A stretch of 64,000 nt of DNA from an uncultured Candidatus Sumerlaeota bacterium (GTDB lineage: Bacteria; Sumerlaeota; Sumerlaeia; MVZB01): NCBI GenBank assembly GCA_964473105.1, contig CAYYNQ010000103.1:17021-81020 (forward strand), in the 5' to 3' direction. Made by a program: the position numbers and the translations under genes. The notes below the pieces were generated by a model, which did not search any database, was not told the origin of the DNA, and saw nothing but the letters and a program-made list of their open reading frames with translations. Of this stretch, positions 5,502-60,601 are shown piece after piece; the stretch's first letter is position 1; each line of letters begins with the position of its first letter.

Positions 5502-5981
5502 GTGGAAATTCTATCATGACACATGCAGGCTTGGGGTCACCCCTTTTGGGATTTCCAATTCTTTTGGCCCATTCAGATCCTTGGCCGCCTTTGTTTATCC
5601 CGGAAGAAGGAAATCTTAGGGTGAGCAACATGGATAGGTGTATGTTCTGTCCATCTGGCTCTAACGGTTGGGGATTATTTCCCGGAAGCCACGCTGGACT
5701 GATTCGCTTCAGGATAGTTATGGCGTAGGCCAAGCGGAAGGCTTATTCAGGATTCAAGAGCACGATACTGCAAATGTGGATGTTGGGTTACGATCCGGGT
5801 TCTCCGGATTGAAGTCGTTTTTTTTAAGCTGATGATGTTATTCTGTTTAACGCGTCTTTGTGTTAAAAAGACGTCCGTGACTGAAGAGACAGGGCTGTCC
5901 AAACATTATTCTCGTTCCCGGTTTCATGATGACCTGTGTATTCATGGCCCGATCGTGTATCGGTCAAAGGACGAATCAAAA

Positions 5982-6814
5982 ATGGATCGACTCCAGGGTT
6001 TTCTGGGCATGGCTGTTTTGCTGGGTATTGCATTTCTGCTTTCGAATAATCGGGCACGAATCAACTGGAAGACGATTATTATAGGCGTTGGACTTCAAAT
6101 TATGCTGGGGGTTGTGCTGCTGAAAATGGGCCCAGTCTCGAGGGCCTTCCGTCTGCTTGCCGCCAAGGTTGAGGAATTTTTGCGGATGTCTGACCAAGGG
6201 GCGAATTTTGTCTTCGGACCGCTGGTTGACTCTGTCATGCTGTCCAAACTGATCGTGTCGGCACAGAACAATGAATGGGTTCAACAGGTAGACTTTACAG
6301 GCGCAGAACTGGGCATGGGTTTCGTGTTTGCTTTCAAGGTCCTTCCAACTATTATTTTCTTTTCAGCGTTCATATCCGTGATGTATTACTTGGGGGTGAT
6401 TCAGCACTTGATACGTGGTGTTGCGTGGATGATGAGGAAAACGATGGGAACCAGCGGCAGTGAGACACTCTCCTGTTCAGGAAACATCTTTGTAGGACAG
6501 ACCGAGGGTTCGCTTCTGATTAGGCCCTATCTGGGCAAGATGACCCAGTCCGAGTTGTGTACAGTGATGTGTGGAGGCTTTGCCACAATTGCCGGAGGTG
6601 TGATGGCGGGGGTTTGGATGAAAAATCCGTGATTATTGCAACATATGCCTTTTGTGGGTTTGCGAATTTTGCGTCGATTGGGATCCAGATCGGCGGGATC
6701 AGTGTTCTGGCCCCGAATCGGCGACAAGACCTTTCAAAATTGGCGCTGAAGGCAATGCTAGGCGGTGCCCTTGCATCGTGGATGACGGCAACGATTTCCG
6801 GGATGCTGATGTGA
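5982..6814 (+). pseudogene. nupC: NupC-family concentrative nucleoside transporter, disrupted by a frameshift and an internal deletion of ~150 aa
   Basis: The N-terminal ~215 aa (MDRLQGFLGMAVLLGIAFLLSNNRARINWKTIII...GGFATIAGGVMAG) read in one frame and stop at 6632. The conserved C-terminus (ATYAFCGFANFASIGIQIGGI...) continues in another frame (6557..6814). The gate/middle domain is missing compared with E. coli NupC. Confidence 0.7.
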
Positions 6815-10022: not shown

Positions 10023-10814
10023 GTGTGGATGGGTTGTGATAGAAAGGTGCGTTGGCGCGAATATTCGGATCCGAGGACATGGAGCGACAGGGTGAACGCA
10101 CCTCGACCCAGAAAGAAGCAGGGAGCCCTCAAGGGGAGCACGTCCGTCATTGACGGGCAGGGTTCCAGCCCGCTTGCGAAGGATGGGATCCGCATCGATG
10201 ATCCTGAATGGCAGAATGATTTCTATCTGCGCCAGCGGCTAAAACGCGCACGGATTCCCCGTCGGTATGCGTCGAAGACTTTAGGGACATTCGATGGCCG
10301 TAGCAGCCCAATTCTCGGGAACTTGACCAAGGATGCGGAACGATACGCCAAGGGTTTCAACTTTGAGGTGGAGTATCCACGTGGCTTGCTGATGGAGGGA
10401 CCTGTCGGTTGTGGAAAGAGCCACATGGCCATCGCAATTCTGCGTGAGATCATCCGGAAAGGATACAGCGGGCTTTATTATAATTCACCCGATCTGCTGC
10501 GAGATATCCGGGCAACATTTTCAAAGGGAAGCCAGATCACCGAGGATGACCTTCTTGAGGAGGTCACGACGATCGATATGTTGGTGTTCGATGACATGGG
10601 GGCCGAGATGTGCACAAATTTTGTCCTCGACCGATTCTATTTGATTATCAATGAACGTTATACTGACTGTAAGCCAGTGATAATCACAACCAATCTCTCA
10701 CGTGAAGAACTGAAGAACCGGCTGGGTGAGCGTATTTTCAGCCGGATATTTGAGATGTGTACACCATTTGGTCCATTTCCGGAAAAGGACTGGCGGATTG
10801 ATCATATGTACTGA
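10023..10814 (+). CDS. DnaC/IstB-family AAA+ ATPase (helicase-loader-like), no IstA transposase next to it
   Basis: Walker A GPVGCGKSHMA, Walker B MLVFDDMGAE, and a DnaC-like tail (RATFSKGS...IITTNLSREEL...GERIFSRIFEMC). GTG/ATG start near 10023-10029. Confidence 0.75.
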   Translation: MWMGCDRKVRWREYSDPRTWSDRVNAPRPRKKQGALKGSTSVIDGQGSSPLAKDGIRIDDPEWQNDFYLRQRLKRARIPRRYASKTLGTFDGRSSPILGNLTKDAERYAKGFNFEVEYPRGLLMEGPVGCGKSHMAIAILREIIRKGYSGLYYNSPDLLRDIRATFSKGSQITEDDLLEEVTTIDMLVFDDMGAEMCTNFVLDRFYLIINERYTDCKPVIITTNLSREELKNRLGERIFSRIFEMCTPFGPFPEKDWRIDHMY

Positions 10815-10886: not shown

Positions 10887-11852
10887 GTGTCTGATCCAAA
10901 ATATGCAGTTATAATACCGAACTGGAATGGGGAGGAATTTATCGAGCGTTGCCTAGGTTCGGTGATGTCCGCCGCACATGACTTGGATCGCCTGGGTGGC
11001 GGTCCAATGGAGTGGATTGTCACTGATGATGCAAGCGAAGATTTATCTCCACAGGTTATACAGGAACGTTATCCTGGGGTGCGTCTTGTCAGATTCAAGC
11101 GAAACCGGGGGTTTGCACGTTCGGTCAATATGGCCATGGAGATGTCCCGTGCTGATTGGGTTTTCTTGCTGAACAATGACCTTGTCCTATCGACGGATTG
11201 TCTGTCACGTCTGGACGAGACACGCAGATCCTTCAAGGAATCGACAGAGCTATTTTCCATTGGGGCACAGACACTTGACTGGTCTACCCGCGAAACCAAC
11301 CATGGAGGCCAGAATGCCATATGGCGGGATAGCATGATTGTTCAACAATCATTTCAGTCCGAAGCGGTGGCATCAAGCGATTTCATTCAGGCGGGTGCTT
11401 GTCTCATCAACAGGTTGCGATTCCTCGAACTCGGAGGTTTTTCGCGAATTTATCACCCGGGTTATTGGGAGGATTATGATCTGGCATTTCAGGCGCGTCG
11501 CAGAGGCTGGTTAAACCTATATGAGCCTCGTGCGATTGCCTGGCACCTTGGCCAGGGGTCGATGAGGCGTCTGCTTGGTGATTATGGCCTGTCAATGGTG
11601 CGTAAACGTAACCAGCTTTTGTTCCAGTGGTTGAACATCATGGACCGGAGGATGTTGTTGATTCACCTGTTGAGCCTGCCACCGCTTGTTTTTGCGGGAG
11701 ATCATCGAAAGGGGGAATGCGGATGGGGCCGGGCGCTGCTGGAGGCTCTTCCGCATTTGAGGGCGGTCTTTTCCATTCGCCGGGACAGACGTGGCCAGTC
11801 GGGACAAGTCAGTGAACGAGAACTTCTGCGGCCACCTTCTGGAACAGCCTGA
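10887..11852 (+). CDS. Family 2 glycosyltransferase
   Basis: AVIIPNWNGEEFIERCL...VTDDAS.D (DxD-type motif) and a GT-A fold pattern. Apparent GTG start. Confidence 0.75.
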   Translation: MSDPKYAVIIPNWNGEEFIERCLGSVMSAAHDLDRLGGGPMEWIVTDDASEDLSPQVIQERYPGVRLVRFKRNRGFARSVNMAMEMSRADWVFLLNNDLVLSTDCLSRLDETRRSFKESTELFSIGAQTLDWSTRETNHGGQNAIWRDSMIVQQSFQSEAVASSDFIQAGACLINRLRFLELGGFSRIYHPGYWEDYDLAFQARRRGWLNLYEPRAIAWHLGQGSMRRLLGDYGLSMVRKRNQLLFQWLNIMDRRMLLIHLLSLPPLVFAGDHRKGECGWGRALLEALPHLRAVFSIRRDRRGQSGQVSERELLRPPSGTA

Positions 11853-12110: not shown

Positions 12111-13586
12111 ATGAGCGGTTTTTTCCTCATTTTCGTGCTGTTTGTCGTTGTTGGGCTGATTCTTATGGTCAGCCATCATCTTCGCCAAATGTCCCGACTC
12201 AAGGAGAAGGTGCAGCAGGCCAACAATGAGAAGGATGCGGTCCTGACACTGATTGACAAGCTCGGCGAGAAGATCACGAGCAAGATTGACCTTGATGAGA
12301 CCTTGGTCATTCTCACGGAATACATCATCCATGCAACTCATGCGGAATCAGGGGCCGTGTTTTTGGTTAACGCGGACAAGAAGACCCTAAATGCATGTGT
12401 TGTGCAGGGCCCGTTTCCGATACTACGTGAGTCGCAGGATTATGTCATGTCCAAGCCGAAGAATTTGACTGAACGGATCAGGAAGGACCCTATCCGGATG
12501 GGTGAGGGCATTGTTGGTCATGTTGCTGAAATTGGGGAGGCTCGCCTGATTACCGATGCCGAGGCTGACCCGCTGGTGCCGCATCATGCCTCATTGTCAA
12601 ATTCATTGCGTTCATTGATGATCTGCCCGCTGCGGGTCAGAGATGAAGTGCTAGGGGTCTTTGCGATCGTAAATAAGACTGATGGCAGTATCTTTGATGA
12701 TCGGGATCTGGATTTACTTCAGGCCCTGAGTGATCAGGCGGCAGTGACGGTTGACTTGGTAAAACTTTACGACGTACTGAACCGCCAGCAGAGGCTTGAG
12801 CATGAACTATCAGTGGCCCATGAATTCCAGAAGATGCTCCTTCCCAATGAATTCCCGGAACTTTCAGAGTATGATATACATGCTTTTAGCGAGGCGGCAA
12901 CCACCGTTGGTGGTGATTTTTTCGATTTTTTCCGCGTAGATGAAGAACATTGGGGCCTGGCTGTTGCCGATGTTGCCGGCAAGGGCATTCCCGGCGCGCT
13001 CATCATGGCGATGACGCGTGCAGTGCTTCGGGCCGAGTCCCGGGACACCCTTTCACCGTCGACTGTTTTGAAAAGGGTTAATGAAAGGGTTCGGGTTGAC
13101 ACAAAAGACAGTGTTTTCATTACACTGACCTATGGTATATTGAACATCCGGACGGCGAGATTGACCTTTGTTCGTGCGGGCCATGAACCCATGGTTGTCA
13201 TGAATGCAAATGAGGGGCGTTTCGAGTTGATCAAGCCTGAGGGAATTGCGTTGGGTCTGGTGTCCGGAGAGTTGTTCAGTTGTATCGAAGAGCACGAGAT
13301 GAGTCTTGGGAAAGGTGATGCTATTCTTCTATACACCGATGGGGTCGTCGAGGCTATGAACCAGAAGAGTGAAGAATATGGTCGCGACCGTCTAATGGCT
13401 CTTTTACGTTCGATGAATTGTGTCACAGCAAAGAATCTGGTTGAGGATGTAATCGAAGACATTCACCAATTCACGCGTGGCATCCCCCAGCATGATGACA
13501 TTACCCTGCTGGCTTTGCGAGTCAGGGATACGGCCGGAATTATGGATCCGGAGAGTTCCGACTGTGGGAATTTAGGAACGTTATGA
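12111..13586 (+). CDS. Membrane-anchored GAF-domain PP2C (SpoIIE/RsbU-type) serine phosphatase
   Basis: N-terminal TM helix and a GAF region (GEGIVGHVAEIGE...LGVFAIVNK). PP2C/SpoIIE motifs GGDFFDF, ADVAGKGIPGAL, LLYTDGVVEA. Confidence 0.85.
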   Translation: MSGFFLIFVLFVVVGLILMVSHHLRQMSRLKEKVQQANNEKDAVLTLIDKLGEKITSKIDLDETLVILTEYIIHATHAESGAVFLVNADKKTLNACVVQGPFPILRESQDYVMSKPKNLTERIRKDPIRMGEGIVGHVAEIGEARLITDAEADPLVPHHASLSNSLRSLMICPLRVRDEVLGVFAIVNKTDGSIFDDRDLDLLQALSDQAAVTVDLVKLYDVLNRQQRLEHELSVAHEFQKMLLPNEFPELSEYDIHAFSEAATTVGGDFFDFFRVDEEHWGLAVADVAGKGIPGALIMAMTRAVLRAESRDTLSPSTVLKRVNERVRVDTKDSVFITLTYGILNIRTARLTFVRAGHEPMVVMNANEGRFELIKPEGIALGLVSGELFSCIEEHEMSLGKGDAILLYTDGVVEAMNQKSEEYGRDRLMALLRSMNCVTAKNLVEDVIEDIHQFTRGIPQHDDITLLALRVRDTAGIMDPESSDCGNLGTL

Positions 13587-13737
13587 GTCTAAAATAATAT
13601 AAACCCCTGTTCGTGGTGTGTTGGAGTGGGACCGGGTCGTTGGCTTGTTGAGTTGCGAGGTCGAATCCGTATACTTACGATGGTGGGTATGTGGCCGTGG
13701 GTTCATTTTCGACGGGAATGTATCGAGTTCGGAGTAG

Positions 13738-14055
13738 GTTCCGCCGGAAGTCGTCTGGATTCGTGTTCCGGATTTTGGGGATGCGTATACGCTTGTTTCA
13801 TTTGAGAAGGCCAGGGATGATCCACTGGAAAGGCGCTACAGCAGGATTATGGTGGATCTCAGCGACCTGCATTGTATCTCCTCGGCCCGGGGGGCCTTGA
13901 TGGTGCTTCTGGAACAGCTCTGGCATCGTGAGGGTGGCTTGATGATCATTCGATTATTGCAGAAGGTCTTAAAGATCCCGGGATCACTCGGGTCTACTGC
14001 GAGATTATCCCTATTTGGCGAAGATCGTGAGAATGCCCCGTTAGCACTGTATTGA
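13738..14055 (+). CDS. STAS-domain protein (anti-sigma-factor antagonist-like), start codon not identifiable
   Basis: STAS-like sequence GDAYTLVSFEK...RRYSRIMVDLSDLHCISSARGALMVLLEQ...GGLMIIRLLQKVLKI. An in-frame TAG lies at 13735. The first canonical start is ATG 13849, which would remove the N-terminal half of the domain. Confidence 0.45.
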   Translation, partial: VPPEVVWIRVPDFGDAYTLVSFEKARDDPLERRYSRIMVDLSDLHCISSARGALMVLLEQLWHREGGLMIIRLLQKVLKIPGSLGSTARLSLFGEDRENAPLALY

Positions 14056-14175
14056 GGTGGTGGGCCTCCCCCCATTGTTATCGCTTTCGTCACTATGGAG
14101 CAGTTCCCAAAGAGACTTGTCCGTTGGGCCGTCGAGTTCAGGATCACGGTTGTGAATGATGTCTGGTGAATTTAT

Positions 14176-15711
14176 ATGAGTGAACATGTCAAAACGGGGA
14201 ATGTCGCGCTTGGCCACGGTGGGAAGCGGGATTCAGGATCATCCTCAGCCAGTCTTGCCAATCTGATTGAAAGACTGGAGATGATCAATCGTATACAGAT
14301 GGACCTGCGTTCTACGCTTAACTATGAAGACATCCATGCGATCATTCTGGCTTCTGTCATTTCCCGATCGGGTTTCAATTTTTCAAGGGCGATACTGGCT
14401 GAGTATGAGGTCGGTCGGGGCGTGTTCAGGGGAATTGCCGCTTTGGGTGCGTCCAGTCGTTTGGAAAATGAGCGTATCCAGACTGAAATTGAGGAAGAGG
14501 CGACGGTTCTGTCCAAGATGGTCGAGGAGTTGAACACGCTCGATCCGGACATCGAGGAAGAGCAACTTTTCCTCAAGAGCATGGAGGATCTTGCCGATCA
14601 TGCGTTCTGGAGAACAACATTCCAAAAGTTCAGTGGTGACAAGAAAATACTGGAAATTATCCGCGACCTGGAGTTGCCGTGTCCTCAGCACCCTGAGCGG
14701 GGGATCAGATCCAGGTCGTTGCTGCTAGATGAAATATTTTCGGGAGATAAAAGCCGGATCCTGAATCGTGATGACCTGATTAAGGCGGAGATGACCATGG
14801 CTTTTGTGGAGTTCATGGATGAACAGAGCATTTGGGCTCCGATCAGGACAAACCGCAATTTGAGGCTGCTACTCGTGACGGACAAGCTCTATCAGGATGA
14901 CCCGATCGGCGGCATGGATGTTTTGCATATCGATTGGTTGGTCGGACAGGTTATCCCCGCTCTTGAGAAAGCCCAGACGTACAACAATATGGAGTCCGCA
15001 TACAAGAGCTTGTGCGAACTAGATCGCATGAAGAGTAATTTTCTTGCAACAGTAAGTCACGAATTACGTACGCCCTTGACAGCAATCAACGGATATATAC
15101 AGCTTTTGATAGGGAACCGGGTGGGTTCGTTTTCCCCGGGCCAGAAGGAGGTGCTTGGGCGGATCCTTTCACAGAGTGATCTGCTGACTGGCAAGGTGAA
15201 CGACCTCATTGAGATAGCCGAGTTGGATTCGGGGAGCACAATGAATATTCCCCTTGAGGAGGCGGACCCACTGAATGCCATAATGACTTCGCTGCCTCGT
15301 GTCGAACAGCGCAGGGCTCATAAGGGCATCACGATTGAACCGATTGTGGAAAGTCCGATTCCCAAGATTCGGTCCAACCAGGAGGCGCTTGAAAAGATAT
15401 TTTTCCATCTCATGGATAATGCCGTCAAGTTCGGTAGAACCAAGGGTCATGTCAGTATCTTATTTGATCAGGTTCAGGATGACCTTCATATTGTTGTTAC
15501 TGATGACGGCATTGGCATGTCAAATGCACATTTGCAGATGATTTTCGATGCGTTTTACCAGGTTGACAACCAACTTGACCGTCATTACGAAGGGATGGGT
15601 GTCGGATTGAGCATCATTAAAAAACAGATCGAAGCTACCGGCGGTCGTGTGGAGGTTGTCAGCGAACTCGGTGAAGGATCTTCATTCACAGTCATTTATC
15701 CACTCGCATGA
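14176..15711 (+). CDS. Cytoplasmic sensor histidine kinase with an N-terminal GAF/PAS-like region
   Basis: H-box FLATVSHELRTPLTAINGY, N-box HLMDNAVKFG, G1 DDGIGM, G2 GMGVGLSII. No TM segments seen and no response regulator in the window. Confidence 0.85.
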   Translation: MSEHVKTGNVALGHGGKRDSGSSSASLANLIERLEMINRIQMDLRSTLNYEDIHAIILASVISRSGFNFSRAILAEYEVGRGVFRGIAALGASSRLENERIQTEIEEEATVLSKMVEELNTLDPDIEEEQLFLKSMEDLADHAFWRTTFQKFSGDKKILEIIRDLELPCPQHPERGIRSRSLLLDEIFSGDKSRILNRDDLIKAEMTMAFVEFMDEQSIWAPIRTNRNLRLLLVTDKLYQDDPIGGMDVLHIDWLVGQVIPALEKAQTYNNMESAYKSLCELDRMKSNFLATVSHELRTPLTAINGYIQLLIGNRVGSFSPGQKEVLGRILSQSDLLTGKVNDLIEIAELDSGSTMNIPLEEADPLNAIMTSLPRVEQRRAHKGITIEPIVESPIPKIRSNQEALEKIFFHLMDNAVKFGRTKGHVSILFDQVQDDLHIVVTDDGIGMSNAHLQMIFDAFYQVDNQLDRHYEGMGVGLSIIKKQIEATGGRVEVVSELGEGSSFTVIYPLA

Positions 15712-16958
15712 CTAGTCCTGTTCTGACAATCAATAGACTTTCCAAAGCCTTTCGTATGCCTCGATCTCGAGTTGGTGATGATCCGCGCCGTATCCGGATT
15801 TCCAGGCGGCATGATTGTTTCCAGGTTCTCAAGGATGTAAGCTTCGATCTGCACCATGGTGAGACTGTGGGGTTGGTCGGGCCGAATGGATCGGGAAAAT
15901 CAACGCTGTTAAAAATCCTGGCCGGCGTGATGACCGCGGATTCCGGATCGTTTCAGGCAACAGGTGGAATTGGAGCCCTGCTTGAGTTGGGAGCGGGTTT
16001 CCATGATGACCTCAATGGCATAGAAAATATCTATCTCAACGGTGCGTTGCTGGGTCTCTCCTTGACCGAGATCGATCGCCTGCTTCCGGAGATCATCGAG
16101 TTCTCCGAACTGGAGCAGTTTATGGACATGCCCGTCAGGCACTATAGTTCCGGCATGACTGCTCGTCTAGGGTTTGCAATTGCCTCGAGGCTCGCGCCGA
16201 AGATTCTTTTGATGGACGAGACGTTCGCGACGGGTGATGCGCGCTTTCAAGCCAAGGCCCTTTCTCACATCGGTCGTTTGAAGGAGCGGGGGCACACCAT
16301 GATCTTGGTCAGCCATAACATGGAGATGATCATGAATCTTGCCGACCGTGTGGTTTGGCTTGACCGCGGACAAATCCGGCAGGTGGGGTTGACTCATGAT
16401 ATCCTTGCCGAATACCGGCGGGTACAGAAGATGAACCTCAATGACACCGACCGGATGCGCAATCTGTTGGGCATCAACTCTCTATTTGACAGTATCCGTG
16501 ATGCTGCTTGCCTTCAAATCCGTGCTGCTGGCTTGAGAACAACCTCCGCCGAGTCGGAAATCACGGGAATTGGCCTCGGACCGGCCGAGATCGAGATGGG
16601 CGGTGACTTATGGTTAGACGTAGATATCGAGTGCCTCCGGGTACCGGATCGAGATGAATACTGGCTTGATAGTGCATGGGTGCGCCAAGATGATCGCATT
16701 TTAGCACAGGGTAGCAGCAGAATTATCGTGGAGACTCAGCCTGGGAAATCCACGCGATGTACCTTACAGTGGAATGATTGGCCGTTGACCGAGGGAGAAT
16801 GGCGGCTTGCCCTCGGGATTCGTTCGGCCGGGAATGGGAAGGGTGCTATTTATGATGACCGAAAGCTGGATGCGGGAAGCGTGTTGGTGGTCACCCCCAA
16901 TCCTTATCTGCTACCGGCAATCATGCCCTTTGGTCATGTGTGGAAATTTGGAGATTGA
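15708..16958 (+). CDS. ABC transporter ATP-binding protein, Wzt/KpsT/TagH-like, with an extra C-terminal ~170 aa domain
   Basis: Walker A GPNGSGKST, signature YSSGMTARLGFA, Walker B ILLMDE. The start overlaps the kinase stop by 4 bp. No Wzm-type permease nearby. Confidence 0.85.
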   Translation: MTSPVLTINRLSKAFRMPRSRVGDDPRRIRISRRHDCFQVLKDVSFDLHHGETVGLVGPNGSGKSTLLKILAGVMTADSGSFQATGGIGALLELGAGFHDDLNGIENIYLNGALLGLSLTEIDRLLPEIIEFSELEQFMDMPVRHYSSGMTARLGFAIASRLAPKILLMDETFATGDARFQAKALSHIGRLKERGHTMILVSHNMEMIMNLADRVVWLDRGQIRQVGLTHDILAEYRRVQKMNLNDTDRMRNLLGINSLFDSIRDAACLQIRAAGLRTTSAESEITGIGLGPAEIEMGGDLWLDVDIECLRVPDRDEYWLDSAWVRQDDRILAQGSSRIIVETQPGKSTRCTLQWNDWPLTEGEWRLALGIRSAGNGKGAIYDDRKLDAGSVLVVTPNPYLLPAIMPFGHVWKFGD

Positions 16959-41379: not shown

Positions 41380-43263
41380 ATGTTTATGCTGAAGAGGTTT
41401 CAAGTGATATTTAATTCTCCTTTCCACTCTGTGAGTTCAAGGCTGGTTTTCCCAGTCTTTTTTCTTGTCCTGTTTTTCTTCGACCCGACCTGCGTGCAAT
41501 CGGTTAAGGACATCAGTCAATTCACCAGTCATTTCAGAGATCCCGACCGGGGTCACGCACCATGGGGTTTTTATCCGGAGGACAGTATCGCGAGTGTGTC
41601 CACAACCGAAAGCCCGGGGTTTGTGGTCATCCGCAATAAGGGTGGAGGCACGGATATCAAGGGTATCTTGGCGGAACCGATCCGTATGGACGAATACCCT
41701 GTTCCCTGGGAATTCCACATGGGTTTCATGCAGGATAAGTTCCAGGCCGTTGGCAGTGAGGGACAGGTCAATTATGCCTTCGGGGTTAATGTAGCCGTCA
41801 CGTTCTCCGACCCTTCGACCTGGCCGGCGGACCGGACACAACGCCCCCCCAATACGCGTTCCGTCCAGCTTCTGCTGGTGCACATGGGTAATGTTGGTGA
41901 GAACTTTCGGGCCGGCCTGCCCCTGGCCAGGCTGAGTGGACTGAATTCATATGACAGTTCACCCGAGGTTTTTCTTGTTTACGGCCGGGGTGATCTTGAT
42001 CCTATCGCACAGGGTAACTGGAATTTTGGGTACACCTCTGTCGGGGCTGACCTGAATAATGCAGGCAGTGGCGAGGCCGGCGGAGCAGCCGACCCGATCA
42101 TCAAGTTTCGTGTTGGCATGAATTCTTCAAACCTGACCCTGGGAGTGGGTTTTGGACCTAATATCGGCTGGAAGAGCAGGGTTATCAACTTTGGTCGGTT
42201 TGGGAAGGCGACGGGTATATGGGAGATCGGGCCGATTATCTCGCTCGACAACTGGATGGCTGAAGAACTGGGGCCGGAACTGGGGCTCACCGAGCCCCCA
42301 AGGTGGCTCAAAAGCATCAAAAGCCGTTATTCAACATCGTGGGGGGAACATGACCCGGCAACCATCGACCCATTGTTGGAGCTGTTTAGAATCCAGCCGC
42401 CAGACCCGAAAGTGCCATGTTATCTTGACTACGCGATCTTTTACCACAACGGCCCAGGCTACATTGAGCAACTTGGTGAGGAGTTTAATGTCCCGGGATT
42501 CCTGGCCGGCGAGAAGTATTATATCGAGGGCAATGTCTTTACCGAGACCTTCTCGAACCCGGGTTTCCTGACGGCAACATCGTTTGGTAATCACGGTGGC
42601 TGGGCGATGTGCCCGATTTTTGGGGGAAGCAGCATCGACCTGACCGGTGAACGTAGCCCCCCCTTCGAGGTCGAGATCGCCGCGATAACACCCGACAATG
42701 ACAAACCCTGGAACCTGTGGTGGAACATTGGAATCTGGAATGAAAAGGGCGACAAGTATGCCGGTTGGCAGCCGTGTATCAAGAATATTCCCGGTGTCGG
42801 GCGCCGTTTCACGAATTCCTTTTCCATCGATCCGGATGCCTTTGAATACCCGACCGAGATCCAGAACAGCGCGATCAACCCGAGATTCGATCCACCCATC
42901 CCGGAACTGCTCGGCCACAAGCCCCTATACTGGTTGTTACAGGTGAAGGATGAGTACCATGTCCGGGTCGGGGTGAGGGGCGACTCGGATGACCCATGGA
43001 CGTTCTCGACCGAGTGCGACACGCGGGACATATTCGGCTCCGACGGCCCGATCAGCATCGTGAATAAAAATAGTAGCGGTCCGGTACATCACACGGGTTA
43101 CAAGGAGGATGACCCTTTCGGAAAAATCGGGAAGTTCGGTTACCCGGCGTTGGTCTCTTACCAACTGCAGCCGAAGGACGGGGTTGCGGGCGTGGGAAAC
43201 GCCCCCGGTTATCAGCAGATGTTGATTGATTATATCCGTTACCGTTATGAATGTTCCGAATGA
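41380..43263 (+). CDS. Secreted ~625 aa protein of unrecognised family (family A, copy 1)
   Basis: N-terminal signal/TM. Clear paralog of 52418..54193 (blocks DIKGIL.EPIR.D.YP.PW.FHMG, WEIGPIISLD.W, NIPGFLA..KYYIEG.VF.ET.SNPG, GGWA.CPI, PWNLWWN.G, WQPCI.NIPG, YPALVS.Q, IDY..YRY). No known domain recognised. Confidence 0.75.
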   Translation: MFMLKRFQVIFNSPFHSVSSRLVFPVFFLVLFFFDPTCVQSVKDISQFTSHFRDPDRGHAPWGFYPEDSIASVSTTESPGFVVIRNKGGGTDIKGILAEPIRMDEYPVPWEFHMGFMQDKFQAVGSEGQVNYAFGVNVAVTFSDPSTWPADRTQRPPNTRSVQLLLVHMGNVGENFRAGLPLARLSGLNSYDSSPEVFLVYGRGDLDPIAQGNWNFGYTSVGADLNNAGSGEAGGAADPIIKFRVGMNSSNLTLGVGFGPNIGWKSRVINFGRFGKATGIWEIGPIISLDNWMAEELGPELGLTEPPRWLKSIKSRYSTSWGEHDPATIDPLLELFRIQPPDPKVPCYLDYAIFYHNGPGYIEQLGEEFNVPGFLAGEKYYIEGNVFTETFSNPGFLTATSFGNHGGWAMCPIFGGSSIDLTGERSPPFEVEIAAITPDNDKPWNLWWNIGIWNEKGDKYAGWQPCIKNIPGVGRRFTNSFSIDPDAFEYPTEIQNSAINPRFDPPIPELLGHKPLYWLLQVKDEYHVRVGVRGDSDDPWTFSTECDTRDIFGSDGPISIVNKNSSGPVHHTGYKEDDPFGKIGKFGYPALVSYQLQPKDGVAGVGNAPGYQQMLIDYIRYRYECSE

Positions 43264-43388: not shown

Positions 43389-45308
43389 TCAGTATGAAAC
43401 CAGGGGAATGATTCTGTCAGGTATGAATTGTGTTACCTGGTGCATGGGTGCCTGATTGGACCGGTAGTGCGTGCGCTCATAGATCTGATAGTAATTTCCC
43501 GTTTCACGCGGCTTGACGTCGATCACCGTGCTGCCCTTGAAGGTCAGCCCGACCTTTTCACCATTGATTGTGTAATCGTCCTCCCAGATAGGGACCGGGA
43601 ACTCCAGGATGATCCTGTCCCCGGGCCGAATTTCCTGAAAGATCAGGCGGTTGCCGTAACCGGCCGGGTCGACTTCCCTGATTTTTACACGGCCGAACAG
43701 GCCTGGGCGTTCAATACGTGACCTTACCCGGTTCTTCTCGACCCATCCGGGGATACGAACGATCACGGTATGAGCTTGCTTGTTGATCAAAACGACCTTG
43801 CCCTCGTAGGGAAGATAACTGGTGACATCCATCCATGCCGAGGCGCGGTTGAGAAAGAGATTGACGGTGGCCATTCCCCGGTCAAACCGTGTGATGCCAT
43901 GCCATGCATAATAAAGTCCCTGTGCGCCATTGACGGCACAGCATCCTCCCAGATTGGCCAGGCAGACACGGGAATGACTGCTGTGTGAAAAACCGCCACG
44001 AAAATTTTTCAGCAGCTCGTCCTCGACTGTCCCGGGTTTTGTCCCGCTGACCCGGCGCATTTTTTCAAGGTCGGTGATCTGCTGCTCGACAAGGTGGTTT
44101 CGCACGGTGTAGTCGAGATCGTCCCAGTAGTCGCCCAAGCCGGCATCACTCATTCGCACGGCATTGACGGCAAAGTCACCGGTGGCGCAGGGTTCGGGAT
44201 AACGCGCGAGGTCAACCGGGCGGCCGTAGGCCTCGGGTTTTGACCATGCGGGTGAGAAACCGAGTCGCACGATACCGTTGCGCCGGGTGTGTTCGTAATA
44301 CTCGCGTGTGAATTCCTTGAGCCAGTCACTGTTGGTGGCGATCGCCATGTCGAGCATTGCAATCAGCCCCTGCGTGCCGTTGTGGAAATGTCCCATCCAG
44401 ATCCCATGTTCGTAACCGGGGTAGCGTTTCTCATCGCTGTTCTCGGCCCACATGCCAGGCTTGAGCGAGAAGCGAAGAATTTTCTTTGCGAGCTCAATCG
44501 ATTCCTCCTCGCCGGTCATTTTGTAATGAATGGCGAGGACACTCATCAGCCGATTGGCTTCAGCACGGGCAGCGCCTTCATAACCGAGTGCATCCATATG
44601 TGGCTCGACCTCAGGGATGTAATCTGGATTGCCCTGACCGTCCTGGACCGTCCACTTCCCCTGTTTGTCGATGCCGGCTTGCATGGGGAAGAATGCCCGA
44701 TCCTCGACGTGGATCGCGACGTTACGGATACCGCGGGCGAGATGATCGATCCAGTCATCCCATTTTGGATTGCCATCGCGGGCCTTGAAATTCAGCATGG
44801 CGAAGATGGTGGTGGCATTGGTCTGGGGGTAGGACGTGCCCTTGAGCTTGCTGGCAGTGACCGGGTAATAGAGCTGTCCGTCCTCATCAATAGCCTTAAG
44901 GAGGGTCTTCATCAGGTTGTATTCGATATCGAGGTTGTGATCGGTGCCGACGGCCTGTCGCAGCATGGGTAGTTGTCGTGCGTTCTTGGGGGAGATATCC
45001 CAGTTTGGGTAATAAATTTCGGGCTTTTTATCATACTGGATGCTTCCCACGGCGTAGGCATGGCTGGGGTCGAGGCTGTTGGTGAGGATGTTAACGGAAT
45101 ATTCCATCTGTCCGACGAGATCAAGCGTATCGGGGACAATGGCCTTGTGTCGTTCCCCAGTCGGATACATACTCTCGATGTTAAGAACTTCATCGATGTT
45201 AAGCTTGGAGGAGGCATTCGGGGAAAATGAAATATTGAAAGCCAGAAGTGCCGCAATGGTCATGGAAGAAATACGAAAAAGGAAACGATTCATGGTTAAA
45301 GTCCCCAC
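43389..45308 (-). CDS. Secreted DUF1680/GH127-like (beta-L-arabinofuranosidase-type) six-hairpin glycosidase
   Basis: Signal peptide and ~640 aa. E372-P-C374 and C456-C457 are spaced like the Zn/catalytic Glu-x-Cys ... Cys-Cys of GH127 (HypBA1 E338/C340/C417/C418). Confidence 0.5.
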   Translation of the reverse strand: MGTLTMNRFLFRISSMTIAALLAFNISFSPNASSKLNIDEVLNIESMYPTGERHKAIVPDTLDLVGQMEYSVNILTNSLDPSHAYAVGSIQYDKKPEIYYPNWDISPKNARQLPMLRQAVGTDHNLDIEYNLMKTLLKAIDEDGQLYYPVTASKLKGTSYPQTNATTIFAMLNFKARDGNPKWDDWIDHLARGIRNVAIHVEDRAFFPMQAGIDKQGKWTVQDGQGNPDYIPEVEPHMDALGYEGAARAEANRLMSVLAIHYKMTGEEESIELAKKILRFSLKPGMWAENSDEKRYPGYEHGIWMGHFHNGTQGLIAMLDMAIATNSDWLKEFTREYYEHTRRNGIVRLGFSPAWSKPEAYGRPVDLARYPEPCATGDFAVNAVRMSDAGLGDYWDDLDYTVRNHLVEQQITDLEKMRRVSGTKPGTVEDELLKNFRGGFSHSSHSRVCLANLGGCCAVNGAQGLYYAWHGITRFDRGMATVNLFLNRASAWMDVTSYLPYEGKVVLINKQAHTVIVRIPGWVEKNRVRSRIERPGLFGRVKIREVDPAGYGNRLIFQEIRPGDRIILEFPVPIWEDDYTINGEKVGLTFKGSTVIDVKPRETGNYYQIYERTHYRSNQAPMHQVTQFIPDRIIPLVSY

Positions 45309-52417: not shown

Positions 52418-54193
52418 TCACCTGGAATCGCCGTAGCGATAATAGAGGTAATCGATCATAAACCGCTGGTAATAGGGCCAGTTGCCCGCACCCCATCCCT
52501 TCTGTCCGACATGGGAACCCTGGAAAGACACCAGTGCAGGATAGGAAAACGCCGCAATCTTGCCGAACATGTCCTTCGAATCGAAGGGTTCGGAAAAAAC
52601 CCACGGGTCCTTCTTGTCGGCCTTGAACCCCACGCGAAGGTTGTACTGGTTCGGGATCTGGATCAGCATATAGAGCGGCCGGGCGGTCATGATTGCCTGA
52701 GTCAGCTCGGGTCCGAACTCGGGCGTGATCCGGATGTTCGGATTGACAAAGCTACCACGTTTGGGATCGAAAGCACCCGAATTACTGTAGGCGATGGCTT
52801 TCCCTGGAATATTTGTGATGCAGGGCTGCCAAGGGTGGTAGGTTCCTTCGGTATCGTAGAGTCCAACATTCCACCAAAGGTTCCAGGGTCGTTCATTGCC
52901 GGGTGGGATAAAACAGAGCTCGATCTCGAACGGGGGTTTGCGATTCCCGATCACGTCCATTTTACCCGGCCCGATCGGGCAGAGTGCCCAGCCACCGTTC
53001 ATGCCGTAGGGTGTCAGGGTCATGTATCCGGGATTGGAGTAGGTTTCACCGAACACATCGCCCTCGATGTAGTATTTCATGTCTGCGAGGAAACCGGGGA
53101 TGTTGAAGTCATCGGAAAGATGCTCGACGTTTTGCGGCCCGGATCCATAGAAGTGCATGTAGTCCACGTAATACTCAAAGCGTTTGTCAGGCACCTGGAC
53201 CTGGAAGGTGTTCTTGAGCCGGTTCAGGATCTCGATCTGTTCAGGTGAGATATCCTTCATGAGCTTGTGGTGTTCACGGAAACTGTCGATCCACATCGGG
53301 GCTTCGTTGACACTCAGTTTTTTTGCAAGCACGTCCGGGATCCAGCGATCGAGGGATATGATCGGCCCGATTTCCCAGACACCGGTGATCGGTCGCGGTG
53401 TGCTAAACTGTCTAAATTGCCATCCCGAGTCGTGGCCTGCCCCGACACCGAGTTCGATGGACTGGTTGCTGGAAAGTCCGATGGTAAAGCGGATGGAATA
53501 CTCGGCGGGACCGCCGAACCGTTTCCAGGTTCCGGAGATTGAATTGGCAAACCCGACCCATGAGTAGTTGAAATCCCAGCGGCCGTTGACCGTCTCGGGG
53601 GCGAGATCACCCCGGCCGTAGATCATGTAGACCTCAGGTGAAAAGTCACGCTGATTCATGTCGGTATGCTTGACGGCCGGCAGGCCCTGGCGGTAGTTCT
53701 CCCCCTGATTTCCCAGGTGGACGACAAACAACTGCAGTTCCTCCGTATCGGGTGGCCGTTTGGAGCGGTCGGTCGGCCAAGTGGAGGGGTCGGAATAGGT
53801 GACGGCCAGGTTTACCCCGAAGGCCCAGTTGATCTGCTCATTGACGAGTCCCTTGACCCCGAGGTAGTTCTGGAGGATTCCCATGTGAAATTTCCAGGGC
53901 AGGGGGTAATCATCGATACGGATCGGTTCCCTGAGGATTCCCTTGATGTCCTGTCCGTTTCCGTTTTCACGGATCGTGAGGTAGCCGGGATTTTCGGTGG
54001 CGGTCATCTCGCGGATGTTGGAATCGGGGGTGAACATCCAGGGGTTGAGGTTGTCACCGTCAATAAAATGCTGATTGAGTTTGCGGATATCCCGGTCGTC
54101 CCGGGCATTTGTTTCGGCCTGCGACAGGATAAGGAGGAACAGGACTACCAAACTCAGGAGTTCGGTTCTTGAATGAAACCAGGGATTATACAT
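52418..54193 (-). CDS. Secreted protein of unrecognised family (family A, copy 2)
   Basis: Paralog of 41380..43263 (roughly half identical by eye, collinear). Signal peptide after the Met at 54193; the ORF is open to 54292. Confidence 0.75.
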   Translation of the reverse strand: MYNPWFHSRTELLSLVVLFLLILSQAETNARDDRDIRKLNQHFIDGDNLNPWMFTPDSNIREMTATENPGYLTIRENGNGQDIKGILREPIRIDDYPLPWKFHMGILQNYLGVKGLVNEQINWAFGVNLAVTYSDPSTWPTDRSKRPPDTEELQLFVVHLGNQGENYRQGLPAVKHTDMNQRDFSPEVYMIYGRGDLAPETVNGRWDFNYSWVGFANSISGTWKRFGGPAEYSIRFTIGLSSNQSIELGVGAGHDSGWQFRQFSTPRPITGVWEIGPIISLDRWIPDVLAKKLSVNEAPMWIDSFREHHKLMKDISPEQIEILNRLKNTFQVQVPDKRFEYYVDYMHFYGSGPQNVEHLSDDFNIPGFLADMKYYIEGDVFGETYSNPGYMTLTPYGMNGGWALCPIGPGKMDVIGNRKPPFEIELCFIPPGNERPWNLWWNVGLYDTEGTYHPWQPCITNIPGKAIAYSNSGAFDPKRGSFVNPNIRITPEFGPELTQAIMTARPLYMLIQIPNQYNLRVGFKADKKDPWVFSEPFDSKDMFGKIAAFSYPALVSFQGSHVGQKGWGAGNWPYYQRFMIDYLYYRYGDSR

Positions 54194-54456
54194 TGGTCGG
54201 GCCTTTCTGGCCTTGATCCGGAAAGACGACTTTTTTTCTAGATGCATCAATGAATTGGGAACGGGGGTACCCCCCCTTATTTTAAAGATCATCTTTACAG
54301 TGTCATGACAAGCAAAATTCTGCGTGAAACGAACCGAAGTATCAACCCGGAAATCATGTTCGTCGAAAAATCATCCGTGGTTAAAATCATTGCGGACTGA
54401 CTGGAAGTACATCAATACATAATCCCATGCATGCCAGGCAGGAAAGCCCGGCCTAG

Positions 54457-54747
54457 ATTTTCGGGGTTGCGCTGATCTCGGCGGTCGGGTCTTTCATTTT
54501 CGGGTTCGAGTATGGTGATCATATCCGGTGTCATCTTGTTCCTGGAGGAGGGATGCGGGCTGTCCGGCCAGACGGTGGCCCACGCCTTTGCGACGACCCG
54601 GGAGAACTTCATCAAGCTCCACGACATTTCGCTGGCAGTTTCTTGATATTCACCGGGATCTCCATGCTGGCCTTCCTTTTCAATTTCAAGATGGTTTCAG
54701 AAACCAAGAAAAAAACACTTGGTAAAATCTCAGCCTTTTGGACTTAA
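54457..54747 (+). pseudogene. Possible 3' remnant of an MFS sugar-porter gene
   Basis: The reading frame ends ...GSFLIFTGISMLAFLFNFKMVSETKKKTLGKISAFWT. This resembles sugar-porter TM12 plus the PETKGK(T/S)LEEI tail. The upstream part is not transporter-like in any frame. Confidence 0.25.
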
Positions 54748-56520: not shown

Positions 56521-56839
56521 TCACGCCTGTTACACGAGAATACTGAAATAATCAACATTATCCTGTATCCAAATAAATCGGGATACGGCCTTGTTCCCTT
56601 GCTGTGAAGGGATTGCGGGTTGATGTCCAGAATTCTGCGGGCATTCCGGCATGTCATATATCATGTCGGTTCGTTTGCCAGAATCCTGATATCAATTTTG
56701 GATAGGGTATATGATGAAGTGACGTCAGCCCTGTTCTTGGAAGTTCCAATCACAGTCACAAAGCAATGAAAATATGTGCAAATCTGTTCCTTATGGGTTA
56801 CAAGGATCATCAAGCTCAAGAAGGTATCGGAGGCGAAGC
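56521..56839. promoter_or_regulatory. Shared divergent promoter region between the two family-B genes
   Basis: Non-coding stretch between the divergent paralogs. Contains a perfect 8-bp palindrome TGACGTCA at 56720..56727 and a GGAGG RBS before 56840. Confidence 0.4.
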
Positions 56840-60368: not shown

Positions 60369-60601
60369 GTTCGACTTATGCTTTCCGAGGTCGTTTGTTG
60401 TGATGTGTGATACAGATTGTCATGGAATCATGGGGAGCATGTCTCATGGCTTCTATCTTTATGCCGATTGCGTCCTGTAGTGTCAACAGACCGGTTACAT
60501 GCGGGGTTTGAAGCCGCATTCATCATGATTCCTGTTGCGAGGGGAATTGTGAACGGGATACTCTCGCGAGTTCAAGAGTGGGTGTCTGTCAGGAGTGGAA
60601 T

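What the first reader, a model, noticed from the sequence alone, without database searches (positions are those of the whole stretch)
12111..16958. Signalling cassette: GAF-PP2C phosphatase, STAS, cytoplasmic GAF/PAS histidine kinase, then a start/stop-overlapping orphan Wzt-like ABC ATPase
RsbU-type PP2C phosphatases usually act on STAS anti-sigma antagonists in partner-switching modules with an RsbW-type kinase. Here the STAS gene is followed by a full HisKA+HATPase kinase, not a GHKL-only kinase. The kinase stop overlaps (ATGA) the start of an ABC ATPase of the polysaccharide-exporter (Wzt/KpsT/TagH) type that has a C-terminal glycan-binding-like extension. No permease (Wzm) or response regulator lies nearby. 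This could be a non-canonical partner-switching or two-component hybrid controlling an export ATPase.
Basis: partly seen in the sequence, partly recalled or inferred. Interest (0 to 1): 0.55.

Follow-up and report, generated by a model that had tools for sequence, protein, structure and literature searches.

The report
Decayed signalling operon with orphan exporter ATPase
This is a partly decayed copy of a gene cluster found only in the uncultured phylum Sumerlaeota, which links a phosphatase/antagonist/kinase switch and a sensor histidine kinase to a sugar-polymer-exporter ATPase that has no membrane partner nearby. The apparent "histidine kinase replacing the usual switch kinase" is simply a deletion.

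Summary
Three of the four genes are real and intact:
- a membrane-anchored GAF-PP2C phosphatase (12111-13586);
- a soluble histidine kinase (14176-15711), whose sensor is a GAF fold with a helical insert and no PAS domain;
- a Wzt/TagH-type ABC ATPase (15708-16958) with a very divergent Wzt_C-like C-terminal domain.

The ATGA stop/start overlap is confirmed. No Wzm permease or response regulator lies in the 64 kb.

The "STAS gene" is a relic. It has only a 68-aa ORF, an in-frame TAG and no start codon at the homologous position. It carries 31 lineage-specific substitutions against 3 in its closest relative.

Relatives in Candidatus Sumerlaeota carry PP2C-STAS-RsbW-HK, often followed by the ABC gene. 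An ordinary RsbW-type kinase gene sits between STAS and HK. The window lacks about 550 bp there.

So the histidine kinase does not replace RsbW. It is a fourth conserved member of the operon, and this genome is losing the STAS-RsbW pair, as two other lineages have.

PP2C-HK adjacency holds in 12 of 13 informative loci, and HK-ABC adjacency in 7 of 13. No locus has a Wzm gene nearby.

The function is inferred, not shown: control of envelope glycan export. This is a new variant of known kinds, of moderate interest.

The parts
10023..10814 (+). IstB-like AAA+ ATPase gene with no transposase partner. It is a conserved upstream neighbour of the cluster.
   Evidence: Pfam IstB_IS21, E 1e-15. The same IstB-like then GT2 then PP2C order occurs in L002 and L097. 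Amino-acid identity to L002 is 79%.
10887..11852 (+). Soluble family-2 glycosyltransferase gene, a conserved upstream neighbour.
   Evidence: Pfam Glycos_transf_2, E 7e-20. No TM segment, and 52% identical to the L097 orthologue.
12111..13586 (+). Membrane-anchored GAF-PP2C (SpoIIE/RsbU-type) serine phosphatase, intact.
   Evidence: Pfam GAF, E 1.6e-17, and SpoIIE 2-192/192, E 1.5e-50. 76% identical to L002 with no gaps, dN 0.15. Orthologue directly upstream in 12 of 13 kinase loci.
13738..14055 (+). STAS (anti-sigma antagonist) relic, most likely a pseudogene. The in-frame TAG lies just upstream at 13735-13737. The only ORF is 13849-14055 (68 aa).
   Evidence: Colinear with the L002 STAS. No Pfam or NCBIfam hit. 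Scores 68 bits against an orthologue profile, versus 175 for L002. 31 unique changes versus 3 in L002, p=8e-7. The GTG start is lost and there are frameshifts upstream of the TAG.
14056..14175 (.). Deletion scar. In relatives, a 150-190-aa RsbW-type serine kinase gene lies here.
   Evidence: Alignment with L002 shows about 550 bp absent from the window. No RsbW-like ORF anywhere in the window.
14176..15711 (+). Soluble histidine kinase: a GAF-fold sensor with a helical insert of about 70-90 aa, then HisKA and HATPase_c.
   Evidence: Pfam HisKA, E 1.9e-16, and HATPase_c, E 1.3e-23. The H, N, G1, F and G2 box residues are invariant in 17 orthologues. Sensor model pLDDT 83.7; the top PDB hits are almost all GAF-containing structures.
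15708..16958 (+). Wzt/TagH-type ABC ATPase with a divergent Wzt_C-like C-terminal domain. Its start overlaps the kinase stop (ATGA).
   Evidence: ABC_tran, E 2e-19. A. aeolicus Wzt, E 7e-77. C-terminal domain versus Wzt_C: hhalign 97.1%. Walker A, signature, Walker B and H-loop residues are invariant in 19 orthologues. Overlap read directly.

Best explanation
The region is one copy of a gene cluster specific to Candidatus Sumerlaeota. Its fullest form is (IstB-like ATPase, GT2) then TM-GAF-PP2C phosphatase, STAS antagonist, RsbW-type serine kinase, soluble GAF-fold histidine kinase and Wzt-like ABC ATPase, often with overlapping stops and starts.

In this genome the partner-switching pair is being lost. 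The RsbW-type gene is deleted and the STAS gene is a decaying relic. The phosphatase, the histidine kinase and the ATPase remain intact and under purifying selection. The histidine kinase is therefore an extra conserved operon member, not a substitute for RsbW.

The following steps are inferred, not shown:
- The ATPase is the nucleotide-binding subunit of a Wzm/Wzt-type exporter of a lipid-linked glycan, and its permease is encoded elsewhere.
- Its divergent C-terminal domain recognises a glycan terminus.
- The co-translated kinase and the membrane-anchored phosphatase couple small-molecule signals, sensed through their GAF domains, to the activity or supply of this export step.
- Where the STAS-RsbW pair is present, it adds a phosphorylation-gated layer to this control.
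For: **Anatomy**
- Domain and fold assignments.

**Synteny**
- Five-gene order in L002, L089/L090 and L091 and L097.
- PP2C-STAS-RsbW-HK without the ABC gene in L007, L009, L010, L093 and L094.
- PP2C-HK-ABC without the STAS-RsbW pair in L006 and L008.
- A 4-bp HK/ABC overlap also occurs in L002 and L089.

**Decay of the pair in the window**
- The window lacks about 550 bp relative to L002.
- The relative-rate test gives 31 versus 3 unique changes.
- The relic deviates at 14 of 39 conserved columns, against 2 of 39 for L002.
- It scores 68 versus 175 bits against the orthologue profile.
- The start codon is lost and there are frameshifts upstream of the TAG.

**Intact genes**
- PP2C, HK and ABC are 70-77% identical to L002, with no or almost no gaps and dN 0.14-0.19.
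- Catalytic motifs are invariant across orthologues.

**Evolutionary pattern**
- The kinase tree places the five-gene loci across the crown clade and the STAS-RsbW-bearing loci in the outgroup. The pair is therefore ancestral and was lost at least three times.

**Precedent**
- Partner-switching modules are already implicated in polysaccharide production (bioRxiv 10.64898/2026.04.08.717354; PMC8256260).
Against: - No experiment or expression data exist; all loci come from metagenomes.
- No Wzm permease, response regulator or sigma factor is adjacent in any locus, so both the input and the output of the pathway are unknown.
- The ABC gene is absent from five PP2C-STAS-RsbW-HK loci, and it stands away from the kinase in L005 and L096. 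The link is frequent but not obligatory.
- The phosphatase is retained without its neighbouring STAS substrate, which the model explains only by assuming another substrate or a paralogue elsewhere in the genome.
- The STAS relic has kept an open frame downstream of the TAG, and both of its indels are multiples of three. Residual function is therefore not excluded.
- The tree is a quick neighbour-joining tree without support values.
Confidence: 0.6

Rival explanations
1. The adjacency is not functional. PP2C-(STAS-RsbW)-HK is a self-contained signalling operon. The Wzt-like ATPase gene merely landed downstream in one sub-lineage and is co-transcribed without any regulatory or physical link.
For: Five loci have the signalling genes without the ABC gene. 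The ABC orthologue occurs away from the kinase in L005 and L096. In L091 an MFS transporter gene sits between HK and ABC.
Against: HK-ABC adjacency is kept across kinases only 37-70% identical, with different flanking genes. The 4-bp stop/start overlap is kept in three diverged loci. In L091 all three genes still overlap.
Confidence: 0.2
2. The kinase and the ATPase form a transporter-coupled sensor. The soluble kinase reads the conformational or ATPase state of the Wzt-like protein, as BceS reads BceAB or PhoR reads PstB/PhoU, and so reports glycan export flux or the presence of a capped glycan terminus.
For: Translational coupling suggests a fixed stoichiometry. The kinase has no membrane or periplasmic sensor. 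The ATPase has a glycan-binding-type domain. ABC-coupled kinases are established (PMC4513084, PMC10314905).
Against: No interaction was tested. The kinase has its own GAF-fold sensor, unlike the sensor-less BceS. The kinase family exists without the ABC neighbour in many loci. No response regulator has been identified.
Confidence: 0.15
3. The short STAS-like ORF is functional, and the histidine kinase has taken over the RsbW role, phosphorylating or sequestering it in a hybrid of partner switching and two-component signalling.
For: The relic keeps an open frame of 105 codons after the TAG, with only in-frame indels. An ATG gives a 68-aa ORF that a gene caller accepted. The phosphatase is retained.
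Against: - Relatives have an ordinary RsbW-type gene plus the same kinase.
- The relic has lost the N-terminal strand and its start codon.
- The hallmark SSAGIGAL motif is disrupted.
- It scores below all family thresholds.
- L006 and L008 have no STAS at all, yet keep PP2C-HK-ABC.
Confidence: 0.05

Closest known systems
RsbU-RsbV-RsbW / SpoIIE-SpoIIAA-SpoIIAB partner-switching modules
   Same: Relatives encode, in order, a SpoIIE-type PP2C phosphatase, a STAS protein and an RsbW/SpoIIAB-like HATPase_c_2 kinase. The STAS passes the TIGR00377 'anti-sigma factor antagonist' cut-off, and the kinase hits RsbW/SpoIIAB at E 1e-22.
   Different: - No sigma factor gene is adjacent in any locus.
- A histidine kinase, and often an ABC ATPase, are conserved operon members.
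- The phosphatase input is TM plus GAF, not an RsbT-binding or receiver domain.
- In this window the STAS is a relic and the kinase gene is deleted.
Partner-switching-like control of polysaccharide production (Vibrio fischeri SypE/SypA; Anabaena HenR/All4160/Alr3423)
   Same: A PP2C phosphatase, a STAS domain and a serine kinase are associated with envelope or exo-polysaccharide genes rather than with a sigma factor (bioRxiv 10.64898/2026.04.08.717354; PMC10120452; PMC8256260). Here a GT2 gene lies upstream and a Wzt-type ATPase gene downstream.
   Different: In those systems the phosphatase carries a receiver domain fed by a histidine kinase, or the STAS is fused to a glycosyltransferase. Here the phosphatase has no receiver, the STAS stands alone, and the associated protein is an exporter ATPase. 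Nothing has been tested experimentally here.
WzmWzt O-antigen ABC exporter (Aquifex aeolicus, PDB 7K2T/8DKU; PMC9445017) and TagGH/TarGH
   Same: The NBD is about 45-54% identical to Wzt_C-bearing Wzt homologues in the database. It has the YSSGM signature and the LLELGxGF loop. The profile aligns to the A. aeolicus chain through NBD and CBD, E 7e-77. The C-terminal domain is homologous to Wzt_C by profile-profile comparison.
   Different: - No Wzm/TagG permease gene lies within 8-10 kb in any of about 15 loci, or in the 64-kb window.
- The C-terminal domain is too divergent for Pfam Wzt_C. It forms a small family of about 30 representatives among 1.84 billion proteins.
- The NBD has a charged, conserved N-terminal DPRRER-SRR motif.
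- The gene is fused into a signalling operon.
ABC-transporter-coupled histidine kinases (BceRS-BceAB flux sensing; PhoR-PhoU-PstB)
   Same: A histidine kinase gene is tightly linked to an ABC ATPase gene, which suggests the kinase could read transporter activity (PMC4513084, PMC10314905).
   Different: Bce kinases are membrane proteins without a sensor domain, and they come with a BceB permease and a BceR regulator in the same locus. Here the kinase is soluble with a GAF-fold sensor, and neither a permease nor a regulator is nearby. The resemblance is an analogy only.

Membership tests
Partner-switching module (RsbU/V/W type) | PP2C/SpoIIE-type serine phosphatase | tested here: met
   Pfam SpoIIE 2-192/192, E 1.5e-50. 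The metal-binding Asp motifs GGDFFD, DGVVEA and HDDIT are readable in the sequence.
Partner-switching module (RsbU/V/W type) | Intact single-domain STAS antagonist | tested here: not met
   In the window there is only a 68-aa ORF, an in-frame TAG, and no Pfam or NCBIfam hit. It shows 31 lineage-specific changes. The feature is met in relatives, e.g. L007 passes TIGR00377.
Partner-switching module (RsbU/V/W type) | RsbW/SpoIIAB-type GHKL serine kinase | tested here: not met
   Absent from the window: about 550 bp are deleted relative to L002, and no hit occurs anywhere in the 64 kb. An intact gene is present in L007, L009, L010, L089/L090, L091, L093, L094 and L097; L002/L003 carries a copy split by a frameshift.
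Partner-switching module (RsbU/V/W type) | A switched target (a sigma factor or another partner) | not testable with these tools
   No sigma factor gene is adjacent in any locus. The target is unknown.
Two-component system | Histidine kinase with H-box and N, G1, F and G2 boxes | tested here: met
   HisKA and HATPase_c. H295, N415, D443/G445/G447, F457/F460 and G473/G475/G477 are invariant in 17 orthologues.
Two-component system | Cognate response regulator in the locus | tested here: not met
   No receiver-domain ORF in the 64 kb, and none adjacent in the related loci, apart from a NarL-type regulator near the kinase in L004.
WzmWzt/TagGH-type glycan ABC exporter | NBD of the Wzt/TagH/KpsT subfamily with intact ATPase motifs | tested here: met
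   The best PDB and NCBIfam hits are Wzt, TagH/TarH and galactan Wzt. Walker A, YSSGM, Walker B and the H-loop are invariant.
WzmWzt/TagGH-type glycan ABC exporter | C-terminal carbohydrate-binding domain (Wzt_C) | tested here: inconclusive
   Pfam Wzt_C is not hit by the window protein, and 1 of 19 clade members hits it at E 0.01. hhalign against a Wzt_C alignment gives probability 97.1%, E 7.5e-11. Homology is supported, but glycan binding is untested.
WzmWzt/TagGH-type glycan ABC exporter | Adjacent ABC-2 permease (Wzm/TagG) | tested here: not met
   No ABC2_membrane gene, and no unexplained protein with 4 or more TM segments, in the 64 kb. None is listed in any related locus.
GAF domain (kinase sensor) | GAF sequence signature or GAF fold | tested here: met
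   No Pfam GAF hit. The model (pLDDT 83.7, pTM 0.81) matches almost exclusively GAF-containing structures among the top 50 PDB hits, e.g. 5W10 with TM 0.70 on the target. No PAS match.
Bce-type transporter-coupled kinase module | Sensor-less membrane kinase with a BceB (FtsX-type) permease and a BceR regulator | tested here: not met
   The kinase has no TM segment and has its own GAF-fold sensor. No permease or regulator is present.

The most novel reading that the evidence does not exclude
The Wzt-like protein may not be an ordinary exporter subunit. It could be a cytoplasmic glycan-terminus sensor, or a flux reporter, that is made in fixed ratio with a soluble GAF histidine kinase. The PP2C/STAS/RsbW switch would gate this pair. 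That would make the cluster a previously undescribed pathway that reports the state of envelope glycan assembly to gene expression. Its partner-switching layer would be dispensable, since it has been lost repeatedly.
Probability: 0.12. Interest if true: 0.7.

Novelty: new variant of a known kind. Interest (0 to 1): 0.4.

Why it matters
If the link is functional, it would add a third kind of output to partner-switching systems, an ABC export ATPase. It would also show a histidine kinase built into such a module without a receiver domain on the phosphatase.

The cluster also offers a natural series for asking what the phosphatase does without its usual substrate: intact, single-lesion, relic and cleanly deleted versions of the STAS-RsbW pair.

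For annotation, it warns that the 68-aa gene call is a pseudogene remnant. The unusual gene order reflects decay, not a new architecture.

Tried and rejected
1. The genome-contig scan with the full kinase alignment was swamped by generic kinase-core patterns. Only L009 and L010 were relevant.
2. A metagenome scan with the 16-sequence sensor alignment failed for lack of a conserved stretch. The 7-sequence version gave only 4 loci.
3. An early idea was that STAS-RsbW integrity and ABC adjacency are mutually exclusive. Loci with all five genes intact rejected it: L089, L091 and L097.
4. Possible RsbW-HK fusion proteins (P0226, P0227, P0239) turned out to be double histidine kinases with weak overlapping HATPase_c_2 hits. 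They give no Rosetta-stone evidence.
5. The ABC C-terminal domain alone found nothing significant in PDB sequences or Pfam. Only profile-profile comparison worked.
6. dN/dS between the window and L002 is uninformative because dS is saturated at 1.4-3. A relative-rate test with outgroups replaced it.
7. Promoter and terminator scans and Rfam gave nothing useful.
8. A fold search with the full-length kinase model returned only kinase cores, so the sensor was modelled separately.
9. Literature searches found no description of this cluster.

Full report
**What is in the window**

On the + strand, the region holds these features:
- ORF 12111-13586 (491 aa) has GAF and a full-length SpoIIE/PP2C domain. 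An N-terminal hydrophobic helix is readable in the sequence.
- A 590-bp stretch follows whose only ORF of note is 13849-14055 (68 aa).
- ORF 14176-15711 (511 aa) has HisKA and HATPase_c.
- ORF 15708-16958 (416 aa) has ABC_tran. Its ATG overlaps the kinase TGA as ATGA.
- Upstream lie an IstB-like AAA+ gene and a GT2 gene. Downstream on the opposite strand lie YjbQ and a beta-lactamase-fold gene.

Three segments gave no Pfam hit even at E<=10: the putative STAS (68 aa, or the 105-codon conceptual translation), the first 285 residues of the kinase, and the last 192 residues of the ABC protein.

**Source and relatives**

The same sequence occurs on one metagenome scaffold, where the 68-aa ORF was called as a gene without any family. 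Where sources name homologues of the ABC protein and the kinase, the full-length matches are mostly named Candidatus Sumerlaeota, Sumerlaeia or Sumerlaeaceae.

The closest locus, L002, has an ABC protein 78% identical and a kinase 70% identical. It is syntenic from the IstB-like gene to gyrB. Between phosphatase and kinase, however, it carries a 100-aa STAS gene (PF01740) and an RsbW-type HATPase_c_2 gene split by a frameshift. Nucleotide alignment shows the window STAS region is colinear with the L002 STAS. About 550 bp that hold the RsbW-type gene are missing from the window.

**Gene order across the phylum**

I annotated all fetched loci with one ORF-plus-phmmer procedure and combined this with the called genes.

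| Gene order | Loci |
|---|---|
| All five genes: PP2C-STAS-RsbW-HK-ABC | L097 (with IstB-like and GT2 upstream, as in the window), L089/L090 (GTGA overlap of HK and ABC), L091 (an MFS gene wedged between HK and ABC, all overlapping), L002 |
| PP2C-STAS-RsbW-HK, no ABC | L007, L093, L094, L009, L010 |
| PP2C-HK-ABC, no trace of STAS-RsbW (23-85 bp spacers) | L006, L008 |
| ABC orthologue away from the kinase | L005 (same metagenome as L093); L096, where an 8-TM protein overlaps its start |

- A PP2C gene lies upstream of the kinase, directly or separated only by the STAS and RsbW genes, in 12 of 13 informative loci.
- The ABC gene follows the kinase in 7 of 13.
- No ABC-2 permease is listed in any locus.

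A quick neighbour-joining tree of the kinases places STAS-RsbW-bearing loci both in the outgroup and across the crown clade. The pair is therefore ancestral. It was lost at least three times: in L008, in L006 and in the window lineage. This tree has no support values.

**The STAS relic**

- Against seven outgroup STAS proteins, the window copy has 31 lineage-specific residue changes versus 3 in L002 (binomial p=8e-7).
- It deviates at 14 of 39 strongly conserved columns, versus 2 for L002.
- Hallmark motifs are disrupted: GFLDAHTV is now PDFGDAYTL, YISSAGIGAL is now CISSAR-GAL, and LGFT-KIF is now LGSTARLSLF.
- The GTG that starts the L002 gene is gone. The region upstream of an in-frame TAG (13735-13737) is frameshifted.
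- A profile of the outgroup proteins scores L002 at 175 bits, the 105-codon window translation at 68 bits and the 68-aa ORF at 38 bits.

The relic is homologous to STAS but far below a functional family member, and its partner kinase gene is absent from the whole window. By contrast, PP2C, HK and ABC are 70-77% identical to L002 with essentially no gaps, and their catalytic motifs are invariant across orthologues.

One caveat applies. Downstream of the TAG the frame is still open, and both indels are multiples of three. Residual function cannot be excluded.

**The kinase sensor**

The full-length model was dominated by the catalytic core in fold search. A separate model of residues about 30-283 (pLDDT 83.7, pTM 0.81) matched almost only GAF-containing structures among the 50 listed PDB hits, for example Lcd1 GAF 5W10, phytochrome GAFs and MCP GAF 3OOV. 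The extra length is explained by two or three long helices inserted after the second strand. No PAS match appeared. The protein has no TM segment.

**The ATPase**

- A profile of 19 orthologues hits A. aeolicus Wzt (8DKU/7K2T) at E 7e-77 over NBD and carbohydrate-binding domain. TagH/TarH and mycobacterial Wzt/RfbE come next.
- NCBIfam agrees.
- The C-terminal domain alone finds nothing in PDB or Pfam. It does align to a Wzt_C alignment with hhalign probability 97.1%, E 7.5e-11, over 137 columns.
- A search of 1.84 billion representative proteins finds only 30 proteins with this domain variant, nearly all about 400-460-aa ABC proteins or fragments.

**Absence of partners**

Pfam scans of all large ORFs, a hydropathy screen and a receiver-domain search were run on the window. 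They found no ABC-2 permease, no unexplained polytopic membrane protein and no response regulator in the 64 kb.

**Interpretation**

Shown:
- The anatomy of the locus.
- The phylum-wide operon.
- The deletion of the RsbW-type gene and the decay of STAS in this genome.
- The repeated co-localisation of the kinase with the Wzt-like ATPase.

Inferred:
- The ATPase serves a Wzm-type exporter whose permease is encoded elsewhere.
- Its C-terminal domain binds a glycan terminus.
- The kinase and the phosphatase regulate, or report on, that step.
- The STAS-RsbW pair is an optional gate.

Because the phosphatase is retained wherever the pair is lost, it must have another substrate or a paralogous STAS elsewhere. 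This is the weakest point of any model.

Relatives have both an RsbW-type kinase and this histidine kinase, and two lineages have neither STAS nor RsbW.

**Comparison with known systems**

- The relatives' PP2C-STAS-RsbW trio meets the sequence definition of a partner-switching module. The window's version fails two of three defining features.
- Links between partner switching and polysaccharide production are known in Vibrio fischeri and in Anabaena and other cyanobacteria (bioRxiv 10.64898/2026.04.08.717354; PMC10120452; PMC8256260). None of these involves a conserved soluble GAF histidine kinase and an orphan Wzt-type ATPase in one operon.
- ABC-coupled kinases of the Bce type (PMC4513084, PMC10314905) are an analogy only.
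- Literature searches found no description of this cluster.

**Verdict**

The locus is a decayed member of a new, lineage-restricted variant of known signalling and export components. Interest is moderate (0.4). The operon family is worth a note. The window's own peculiarity is explained by gene loss.

Noticed in passing
window 13735-13737; L002 7479-7481: The window and L002 share an in-frame TAG at the same codon of the STAS gene, aligned to a Gly codon in L007. In L002 the sequence on both sides of the TAG is still conserved at the protein level: upstream there are 9 synonymous versus 4 non-synonymous differences from L007, and an ATG-started ORF is open for 38 codons. Read-through, a downstream GTG start and parallel mutation are all possible; it remains unexplained.
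   Followed up: partly
L002 7860-8440 (also L003): The RsbW-type gene of the closest relative is split by a 1-nt frameshift in a run of five G, but is otherwise conserved. It could be a genuine early lesion or an assembly error.
   Followed up: partly
window 10023-10814 and 10887-11852; L002 3804-5633; L097 4171-5819: An IstB-like AAA+ ATPase gene with no IstA transposase, followed by a soluble GT2 gene, precedes the phosphatase in three diverged genomes. This suggests a domesticated IstB-like protein that belongs to the cluster.
   Followed up: partly
L096 8553-10004: A 483-aa protein with about 8 predicted TM segments and no Pfam hit overlaps the start of the ABC orthologue by 4 bp, in a locus without the kinase. 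It is too large for Wzm and might be a GT-C-like enzyme or an alternative membrane partner.
   Followed up: partly
L091 10650-12026: An MFS transporter gene of the D-galactonate/HpaX type is inserted between the kinase and ABC genes, with stop/start overlaps on both sides.
   Followed up: partly
window 54730-56520 (-) and 56774-58537 (+): Two divergently oriented genes of about 590 aa each carry an FGE-sulfatase (SUMF1-like) domain plus a long unassigned C-terminal part.
   Followed up: no
window 5832-6632: The nucleoside transporter ORF has only the N-terminal and Gate domains (266 aa) and may be truncated or split.
   Followed up: no
window 41380-43263, 43389-45308, 52418-54292, 60578-61939: Four large ORFs (453-639 aa) have no Pfam family at E<=1e-4.
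   Followed up: no
window 1-62000: GC skew is positive in every 2-kb bin up to about 62 kb, with no turning point. No Rfam family was detected in the 64 kb.
   Followed up: no
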